A program made the translations under genes and the position numbers. From Eledone cirrhosa (Eukaryota), in contig OZ024743.1 in assembly GCA_964016885.1 (NCBI GenBank), forward strand, positions 312,790,001-312,854,000: 64,000 nucleotides of DNA. The letters are read 5' to 3'. The notes below the pieces were generated by a model that saw only the letters and a program-made list of their open reading frames with translations, had not been told where the DNA came from and ran no database searches. The first letter of the stretch is position 1. The number at the start of each line of letters is the position of its first letter. Positions 35,674 to 37,496 of this stretch are shown piece after piece.

Positions 35674-36013
35674 TATATATATATATATATATATATATAT
35701 ATATATATATATATATATATATATATATATATATATATATATATATATATATATATATATATATATATATATATATATATATATATATATATATATATAT
35801 ATATATATATATATATATATATATATATATATATATATATATATATATATATATATATATATATATATATATATATATATATATATATATATATATATAT
35901 ATATATATATATATATATATATATATATAGTACGTTATTGGTTGAATCGGAGGTAACCACAGTAAGTAAGGTACTCAATACATAGCAGAGTATAAAAGTT
36001 TTAATATAGATGA

Positions 36014-36062
36014 GATTCTACAGGACTAGAACTGTTTCATTCTTTAGAAATCATCAGGAATC
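36014..36062 (-). ncRNA. Type I hammerhead ribozyme motif (mirror copy)
   Basis: Exact reverse complement of 36071-36119, within palindrome 35996-36137. Confidence 0.8.
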
Positions 36063-36070
36063 CCTGATAT

Positions 36071-36119
36071 GATTCCTGATGATTTCTAAAGAATGAAACA
36101 GTTCTAGTCCTGTAGAATC
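36071..36119 (+). ncRNA. Type I hammerhead ribozyme motif
   Basis: GAUUC CUGAUGA UUUCU-AA-AGAAU GAAA CAG-UUCUAGUC-CUG UA|GAAUC. Stem I GAUUC/GAAUC, intact core, stem III ACAG/CUGU, GUA cleavage triplet. The 10.1-11.1 position is U.U. Confidence 0.8.
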
Positions 36120-37496
36120 TCATGTATATTAAAACTTATATACATATATATATATACATATATATATATACGTATATATATATATATATATGTATATATA
36201 TGTATATATATATATATATATATATATATATGTATATATATATATGTATATATATATATGTATATATATATATATATATGTATATATATATATATATATA
36301 TATATATATATATATATATATATATATATATATATATATGTATATATATATATATCTATATATATATATATATAATTATATATATATATATATATATATA
36401 TATATGTATATATATATATATATATATGTATATATATATATATATGTATATATATATATATATATATGTATATATATATATATATGTATATATATATATA
36501 TATGTATATATATATATATATATATATATATATATATATGTATATATATATATATATATATATAACACGATATAGTATATTTACCTCTATGGTTACATAT
36601 TGAGGGCTCTTTCTTTAGTCATTACAACTACACATTCGGGCAATAATATATATATATATATATATATATATATATATATATATATATATATATATATATT
36701 AATATGTATGTATGTATGTATGTATCATTAAATATTCAAAGCTAATTAAGTAGATGCTCTGACAAGCTATAAAATAAATAATATAATCATTATATGGTAG
36801 AACTAAGGACAGTTTGATGTGGTTTGATATAAAAGGGTTAAAACTAACCCAATTATATGAAACAGGAAAAGAATTAAGGCAAGAAAGTAAAGAAAAAACC
36901 CCATATAAAGGCAAAACAAATAAAATACTAAATAACATGCATATTATATATAATACCTTAGATTTTTGTTGAAAGTTGAAACTGATACAATATAGACATT
37001 ACTTTACCACCAATAAATAAATGAAGGCACACGTTTACAATATTTGGTAACATCTTGTATTTAGACTTTCACTATGAAAAGGTTGAATATTCACTTTTCA
37101 TTGGTTATTTCAACTAATTTGTCACACACCACTCTTACCAAAGCGGAAGTGAGTAGCTTCAACTTATTAAAGCTTCCACCAGCTCTATTGATTGATTCAT
37201 TGATCTGTCAGTTCAATAATTGCTTAAATACCAGAACAGAATTTTTTTAAACTGATGATTTTTTGTTACCTCATGGATTATTATATCAACTCAAAGCAGA
37301 ATTCTTATTTAACCTTTTCATTACCATATTTCTAATGAAAGATACTGTCTATATTTTTCAAGTAATTTGAAAATAATCAAGAACTTTAAGGTATTTTGTA
37401 AGAGAATTAACATTCTCATTATCAGGCAAGAGTTTGGAACATAACTTAACCAAAGTTCTTACATATAATTATAATGTAAGGCTTTTAGCTAAATAA

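What the first reader, a model, noticed from the sequence alone, without database searches (positions are those of the whole stretch)
35929..36137. Double-hammerhead palindrome of about 200 nt: a minimal (TA)n-targeting mobile element
Seen: a 142-bp near-perfect palindrome whose arms each encode a complete type I HHR, one per strand, back to back. It has a one-sided tail of about 65 nt, no ORF, and sits between long (TA)n tracts. Established: Penelope-like elements carry type I HHRs in their pLTRs and often insert with inverted pLTRs plus a tail. Inference: this is an ultra-reduced non-autonomous PLE/retrozyme-like unit that places a ribozyme on whichever strand is transcribed. The mirror arm could fold back and silence it.
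Basis: partly seen in the sequence, partly recalled or inferred. Interest (0 to 1): 0.85.

Follow-up and report, generated by a model that had tools for sequence, protein, structure and literature searches.

The report
Penelope stub ending at predicted start
This mirror-image stretch is one of over a thousand short stubs of a Penelope-type jumping gene that is still intact elsewhere in the genome; the layout is known, but the stubs break off where that gene's RNA is predicted to begin, which likely records how these elements copy their RNA from both cut ends of the target DNA.

Summary
In detail: a 142-bp palindrome (66 of 67 pairs), a type I hammerhead motif on each strand, a 66-nt tail and (TA)n on both sides. 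The unit is the first ~135 nt downstream of the predicted start site of a Hydra-clade Penelope-like element (PLE), joined head to head to a shorter mirror copy. An intact 714-aa ORF of that element lies in the same genome. At least 1,181 such stubs exist. The apex differs from copy to copy, family variants match in both arms (78 of 79), and arm-specific variants are private. So the mirror is likely built at each insertion, and the unit does not copy itself. The mirror arm precedes the ribozyme on both strands and is predicted to block it. Inverted pLTR plus tail is a published PLE layout, and this scan noted such stubs before, in this genome and others. Added here: the apex lies about 30 nt behind a TATA box in two families; junction shapes favour priming from both target ends over fold-back; and the same hammerhead forms a satellite of at least 367 kb. 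No RNA data were available.

The parts
35930..36062 (-). Long arm in element sense: hammerhead plus tail, positions +1 to about +136 of the parent PLE (with a 3-nt deletion in the tail of this copy)
   Evidence: parent L112
35930..35995 (-). One-sided tail; its outer end is the fixed junction to (TA)n and the inferred main RT start site
   Evidence: aligned end at +135/136 in 45 of 50 copies
36014..36062 (-). Type I hammerhead motif of the long arm; predicted cut after 36019
36063..36070 (.). 8-nt apex, specific to this copy; lies at the predicted transcription start of the parent
36071..36137 (+). Short inverted arm, parent +1 to about +67, ending at a TA-rich site
36071..36119 (+). Type I hammerhead motif of the short arm: core 36076-36082, GAAA 36095-36098, GUA 36112-36114
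35672..35929 (.). (TA)n target, tail side
36138..36564 (.). (TA)n/(TATG) target, short-arm side

Best explanation
The palindrome is a short insertion stub of a Hydra-clade Penelope-like retrotransposon, likely made when the element's enzyme copied only the 5' end of its RNA from both cut ends of a (TA)n target and the two copies were joined head to head. Shown: it matches the parent's +1 to +135, the family is large, the tail end is fixed and the apex varies. Inferred: (1) the pLTR promoter starts RNA at the A just before helix I; (2) the endonuclease cuts both strands of (TA)n; (3) one end primes at the tail site (+135), the other at a UA-rich site (about +54 to +67); (4) both cDNAs run off the RNA 5' end, probably on one RNA by strand displacement; (5) their 3' ends are joined with small templated insertions or microhomology. 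Priming in the 3' pLTR copy of a longer RNA would give the longer insertions. The stub lacks the promoter, and its hammerheads are predicted to be locked in a 67-bp hairpin.
For: Parent: L112 has an unbroken 714-aa ORF 180 nt behind the same hammerhead, with RWR, DKT, YRDD, CxCx5C and GIY-YIG motifs; 1,190 homologues. Built at insertion: 33 apex kinds in 50 copies. A loop-II variant agrees between arms in 78 of 79 copies, and none of 52 arm-specific variants occurs in more than 2 copies. Stop site: 31 of the first 100 listed hammerhead ends stop within one base of GATTC (read by eye); in a sister family about 90 of 100 stop at the matching place (by eye). A TATA box lies 32-36 nt before the shared TTCC in 6 of 8 loci asked, 30-31 nt before the A in L112, L151, L250 and L260, although the spacers of the two families are unlike. 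Two primings: in 10 of 13 one-sided apices the inverted arm is the complete one. In 7 of 17 two-armed loci the inverted arm reaches further 5' than the tail arm, five times by 45 nt or more; the reverse occurs in 4, by at most about 24 nt (by eye). In vitro, an anole PLE cuts and extends both strands and starts at two internal sites (PMC11167929).
Against: No RNA data: the start site rests on motif spacing only. 69 of 100 ends run on upstream, so the stop is a peak, not a rule. The extra C after GAATCT (19 of 48 ends) fits copying of the cap but also priming on the mirror of helix I. One-sided deletion in a palindrome after insertion could mimic unequal arms, and 10:3 is weak against 50:50. 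Arm concordance fits fold-back or arm-to-arm conversion just as well. In this family the apex also follows a pyrimidine-rich run and CAG, and in D. virilis an intron ends at helix I (PMC4209133). D. virilis Penelope has a TATA-less internal promoter (PMC2377424). No tree was built for clade placement.
Confidence: 0.62

Rival explanations
1. Same origin, but the mirror arm is made by fold-back: one tail-primed cDNA self-primes at its 3' end and the new strand joins the other target end at a TA microhomology.
For: Both arms share family variants in 78 of 79 copies. Some apices are clean hairpins with 3-4-nt loops. Self-priming was proposed for PLE palindromes, there on an antisense template (PMC3846280, passages).
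Against: A one-base apex with both arms complete (10 of 50) leaves no loop. Inverted arms that hold 45-118 nt missing from the tail arm (L046, L049, L056, L059, L067) cannot be copied from it, unless later deletion removed that part.
Confidence: 0.2
2. The stop at helix I is set by something other than the start site: a splice acceptor, or the nascent cDNA pairing with its own mirror of helix I.
For: CAG precedes ATTCC in L112. An intron ends at helix I in D. virilis (PMC4209133). Several apices continue as TCATC, the sequence next to the 3' strand of helix I.
Against: The sister family stops at the same register without an AG (L250, L260). No shared exon-1 sequence appears in the apices. TATA spacing is kept in both families.
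Confidence: 0.15
3. One reading: a minimal non-autonomous palindromic element that is transcribed and retrotransposed as a unit.
For: More than 1,181 copies of similar size. A few short apices recur (A six times, TGA four times in 50).
Against: No arm-specific variant is inherited, and the apex does not follow the subfamily. The stub lacks the TATA region. Sizes grade into longer two-armed insertions of the same parent. Hammerhead core sites carry private changes about as often as other sites (6 on 7 core sites, 46 on about 46 others; my count).
Confidence: 0.07
4. Assembly or long-read fold-back artefact.
For: Palindromes beside long microsatellites are error-prone (general knowledge). This copy's own apex was not checked in reads.
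Against: Fixed asymmetric tail, one mismatch between the arms, and 1,181 loci with diverse apices on many contigs. Opposite-strand joints at the apex occur in contigs of public runs.
Confidence: 0.01

Closest known systems
Insertions of endonuclease-bearing PLEs with an inverted 5'-truncated pLTR and a one-sided tail (PMC8557442, PMC3846280; passages read)
   Same: Head-to-head inverted copy, tail on one end only, palindromic junction, (TA)n targets
   Different: The stub is only about 210 bp, the tail is about 66 nt (30-40 bp in the papers), and truncation peaks at one site, the predicted start
Hydra clade of PLEs (PMC8557442, section 11 and supplement passages), including Hydra-1_Obim
   Same: Short single ORF, DKT, RW(K/R), CxCx5C linker, C-terminal GIY-YIG, hammerhead, (TA)n insertion
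   Different: A different family: its hammerhead core string and N-terminal peptide gave 0 hits in the supplement, and Hydra-1_Obim has another sequence
PLE hammerheads (PMC4209133, parts 1-2 of 4 read)
   Same: Type I motif in the pLTR; opposite-strand pairs 100-700 bp apart were already noted there
   Different: Helix II is 3 bp over U.U instead of G10.1-C11.1, and helix III is present. A U.U base occurs in axolotl HHR_Amex2, which cleaves weakly (PMC7229834, passages)
Animal non-LTR retrozymes (PMC7229834 passages; 10.64898/2026.07.22.740005 part 1 of 5)
   Same: Non-coding, type I hammerhead, PLE-related
   Different: Retrozymes are head-to-tail repeats of 150-450 bp; this unit is head to head. 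Only the 78-bp satellite of the same motif is tandem
L1 twin priming (recalled; no paper read)
   Same: Both target ends prime on one RNA and give a 5' inversion
   Different: L1 segments are adjacent; here they often overlap fully and both reach the RNA's predicted 5' end

Membership tests
Hydra-clade PLE (parent) | Single short ORF with RT and C-terminal GIY-YIG | tested here: met
   714 aa, YRDD at 347, YIG..R at 603. Pfam itself gave no passing hit; homologues carry PF26215, PF01541 or PF00078
Hydra-clade PLE (parent) | DKT and RWK motifs, CxCx5C linker, CxxC and CxH around the conserved E and N | tested here: met
   DKT 116, RWR 38 (K replaced by R), CNCLNKEAC 567, CDLCISE 667, N..CMH 686; criteria
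Hydra-clade PLE (parent) | No CCHH motif in the endonuclease | tested here: inconclusive
   A loose regex matched only the C-terminal CxxC..H..H stretch; not aligned to reference CCHH positions
Hydra-clade PLE (parent) | Placement in the clade by phylogeny | not tested
   Only a by-eye likeness to the published Hydra alignment
Hydra-clade PLE (parent) | Hammerhead in the pLTR and (TA)n insertion | tested here: met
PLE inverted-pLTR-plus-tail insertion | Inverted 5'-truncated copy at the 5' end, tail on one arm | tested here: met
Type I hammerhead ribozyme | Core CUGANGA, GAAA, NUH and three helices | tested here: met
   variation falls mostly in loop II while the 3-bp helix II is kept. Below Rfam thresholds
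Type I hammerhead ribozyme | Active fold is stable and self-cleaves | not testable with these tools
   Computed only: active fold 3-5 kcal/mol above the MFE in the free arm, more than 70 kcal/mol above it in the palindrome
Non-LTR retrozyme | Head-to-tail repeats with a hammerhead in each unit | tested here: not met
   The window unit is head to head
Non-LTR retrozyme | Expressed as cleaved monomer or circular RNA | not testable with these tools
   No RNA run was on hand
Self-propagating non-autonomous element | Copies inherit unit-specific marks from master copies | tested here: not met
   (79 copies)

The most novel reading that the evidence does not exclude
These stubs are a natural footprint of the unsolved PLE integration step: a dimeric RT-endonuclease primes both ends of a cut (TA)n at two internal sites and copies both to the capped 5' end, like two strong-stop DNAs. 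The inverted pLTR, the tail and the palindromic junction of PLEs would then all follow from two-ended priming on a sense RNA, with no antisense template needed, and the apices would map the start sites of PLE families from DNA alone.
Probability: 0.4. Interest if true: 0.62.

Novelty: new member of a known kind. Interest (0 to 1): 0.36.

Why it matters
The element itself is an ordinary PLE footprint. Its use is as a ruler. How PLEs form tandem and inverted structures is named as an open task in PMC8557442, and PMC3846280 proposed self-priming on antisense RNA. Here a young family with an intact ORF and over a thousand junctions gives exact predictions for an in vitro test: start at the A before helix I, priming at +135 and at about +54 to +67. 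The family also puts more than a thousand perfect hairpins of 55-70 bp into the genome, possible substrates for RNA editing or small-RNA enzymes (untested). The 78-bp satellite shows a PLE hammerhead turning into a tandem array inside one genome.

Tried and rejected
Rfam found no hammerhead. Pfam did not name the parent ORF. The run search listed no RNA holder; this says nothing on expression. Contigs of three runs of unknown kind were laid on the parent: depth is uninterpretable because of the satellite and sister families, so only the joints were used, as a lead. This copy's own apex remains unchecked in reads. The variant count was empty through a type bug and was redone; the descriptor count was faulty and was redone. 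The blast table was swamped by microsatellite hits and was redone. Helix I covariation in the sister family was inconclusive (10 of 13 concordant, nearly all one type). The idea that the hammerhead cut defines an end was rejected: the cut is at +44, the ends at +1, about +54 to +67, and +135. Cap copying as proof of the start site was not accepted, since it has a second explanation. Selection on the catalytic core was not seen in the stubs or the satellite (0.025 vs 0.030 changes per site). The inverted flanks 35252-35340 / 36560-36648 are another repeat family, not a target duplication of unique DNA. Searches for two-ended priming of PLEs in print: 'Penelope' + 'twin priming' (3 papers, none on PLE mechanism by listing) and 'Penelope, strong-stop, pLTR, second strand' (listing only). 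Subscription papers are not covered.

Full report
Observation. The sequence shows a palindrome with arms 35996-36062 and 36071-36137, 66 of 67 pairs complementary, an 8-nt loop, a 66-nt tail at 35930-35995 and (TA)n on both sides. Each arm holds a type I hammerhead motif with the predicted cut after GUA at 36114 (+) and 36019 (-). My descriptor finds only these two sites in the window and none in 200 shuffles. Rfam misses them. Helix II is weak, 3 bp over a U.U pair; a U.U base is known from an axolotl hammerhead that cleaves weakly (PMC7229834, passages).

Family. The genome is 3.0 Gb; an octopus is my inference from its size and repeats, not tested. All 40 scored candidates of 1,348 match nearly the whole 211 nt at 94% or more. 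An exact pattern across the apex with both arms complete occurs at 1,181 loci, control 0. In the first 50 of those, all on contig C1, the tail arm ends at +135/136 in 45. The short arm ends at one TA-rich site in 30 and at a second in 10, and there are 33 different apices. An artefact would not give this pattern.

Parent. Extending the tail end led to copies that run on into an ORF. L112 (G000:C3:377608500-377618400) has the same hammerhead at 3760 and an unbroken 714-aa ORF from 3940. It carries RWR, DKT, YRDD, CxCx5C, a GIY-YIG motif, CxxC-E and N-CxH, the marks given for the Hydra clade, whose families insert in (TA)n (PMC8557442 section 11). It has 1,190 homologues, the listed ones at 38-53% identity. 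Pfam gave no passing hit and I built no tree. The published Hydra-1_Obim is a different family. The window unit is this parent's +1 to +136 (counting the G of GATTC as +1) plus an inverted +1 to about +67.

Is the palindrome copied as a unit? In 79 copies (the 50 above plus 30 best hits, one duplicate dropped) a loop-II variant is T/T in 22, A/A in 56 and mixed in 1; independent draws would give about 32 mixed (my arithmetic). The 52 arm-specific variants are shared by at most 2 copies each, and apex type does not follow subfamily. So both arms come from one template lineage at each insertion, and no master palindrome has left a brood. The low private divergence, under 1%, marks the family as young.

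Why the apex sits there. Of 13,350 exact hammerhead 5' ends, the first 100 listed split, by eye, into 69 that continue into the parent's upstream DNA and 31 that stop within one base of GATTC. The longer class forms the same two-armed insertions with arms of up to hundreds of bases (20 loci). In a sister family, which has an older copy at window 47730-47830, about 90 of the first 100 of 609 ends stop at the matching base (by eye). A TATA box lies 30-31 nt before the A at which copies stop in L112 and L151 and in the sister loci L250 and L260, whose spacers differ; L082 and L102 give 36 and 32 nt to TTCC against 33-34 for the others, and two loci asked gave no row. L112 also has CCAAT 79 nt before TTCC and an initiator-like CCAGATT (consensus recalled). 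The sister loci have no AG at this place, which argues against a splice acceptor. The hammerhead cut at +44 matches no end. I infer that the apex is the RNA's 5' end. This is not shown: no RNA data were on hand, and D. virilis Penelope uses a TATA-less internal promoter (PMC2377424, passages), though TATA and Inr motifs were noted in rotifer pLTRs (PMC3846280, passages).

How the mirror is made. In 13 apices with one arm shortened, the complete arm is the inverted one in 10 and the tail arm in 3. Among 30 loci picked by the tail end, 17 have two readable arms: the inverted arm reaches further 5' in 7 (five by 45-118 nt), the tail arm in 4 (by at most about 24 nt), and 6 are equal (by eye). Fold-back of a tail-primed cDNA cannot supply bases that the tail arm lacks, and one-base apices (10 of 50) leave no loop. 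Two primings explain both. This fits the in vitro result that an anole PLE cuts and extends both strands, starts at two internal sites that define the tail, and does not need hammerhead cleavage (PMC11167929, parts 1-2 of 4). Against this: later one-sided deletions could mimic unequal arms, some apices are clean hairpins, and arm concordance fits fold-back too.

Ribozyme function. On either strand the antisense arm is transcribed first. Every prefix of the second arm pairs back to it, and forcing the hammerhead helices costs 73-80 kcal/mol in the full unit against 3-5 in the free arm. Private changes hit core and non-core sites alike. The stub is predicted to give a long hairpin, not a ribozyme.

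Side result. A strand excess and joints led to a 78-bp tandem array of this hammerhead: 1,741 exact junctions, all on one strand. It starts at the apex of a two-armed insertion near C28:30,496,750 and fills 7 of 10 sampled blocks up to 30,864,000, absent from 30,900,000 on: at least 367 kb, about 4,700 units if continuous. The core is intact in 274 of 372 units and changes at nearly the background rate (0.025 vs 0.030 per site), so DNA-level expansion is likely.

What is known. Inverted 5'-truncated copies with a one-sided tail are standard for endonuclease-bearing PLEs (PMC8557442, passages; PMC3846280). Opposite-strand hammerhead pairs were noted in PMC4209133 (parts 1-2 of 4). Retrozymes are head-to-tail (PMC7229834 passages; 10.64898/2026.07.22.740005 part 1 of 5; its supplements were not seen). 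A 2026 octopus repeat annotation does not mention hammerheads or palindromes in its main text (PMC13282606, term search). Two searches found no paper proposing two-ended priming for PLEs, within the open library only. Earlier notes of this scan describe such stubs in at least 3 genomes, two of them hinting at the stop at helix I and at separate copying of the arms.

Verdict. Real, and a new member of a known kind. The PLE-stub identity is firm (about 0.9); the start-site and two-priming mechanism is likely but unshown (about 0.6). Interest 0.36.

Noticed in passing
G000:C28 about 30,496,750 to at least 30,864,000 (L194-L201, L232-L238): 78-bp tandem satellite of the same hammerhead, at least 367 kb, growing from the apex of a two-armed insertion; no sign of selection on the core.
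   Followed up: yes
L192:1370-1945 (G000:C1 about 350,200,260): Small array of about 8 of the same 78-bp units, without a tail arm beside it.
   Followed up: partly
window 47730-47830: Older double-hammerhead palindrome of a sister family, one arm decayed, next to (GA)n; 609 exact ends of that family in the genome.
   Followed up: yes
window 35252-35340 and 36560-36648: Two inverted copies of another repeat, 98% alike to each other and about 90% to other family members, enclosing a SINE-like stretch and the stub; its end resembles the PLE tail end.
   Followed up: partly
window 35343-35672 (-): SINE-like repeat with a tRNA-like head (Rfam tRNA 28.1 bits, just under the gathering score, at 35616-35673).
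   Followed up: no
window 100-190 and 32380-32420: Further decayed hammerhead-like cores, one pair back to back at 146/160.
   Followed up: no
tail, window 35970-35985; flanks of L016, L031, L044, L045: A short tail motif (GTATTGAG.AC) is shared with another hairpin-plus-tail family in this genome and with the 3' end of a published coral Hydra consensus; a candidate recognition site for the enzyme.
   Followed up: no
L112:6200-6900; L174, L176, L177, L187: The parent's 3' UTR holds a long (TG/TA)n microsatellite that appears to travel with the element.
   Followed up: partly
L113:6617-8137; L076:2206-3530: RT-bearing frames of another retroelement family lie next to parent copies.
   Followed up: no
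L069/L070 (G000:C1 about 245,280,000): Two copies in tail-to-tail orientation across a (TA)32 tract.
   Followed up: no
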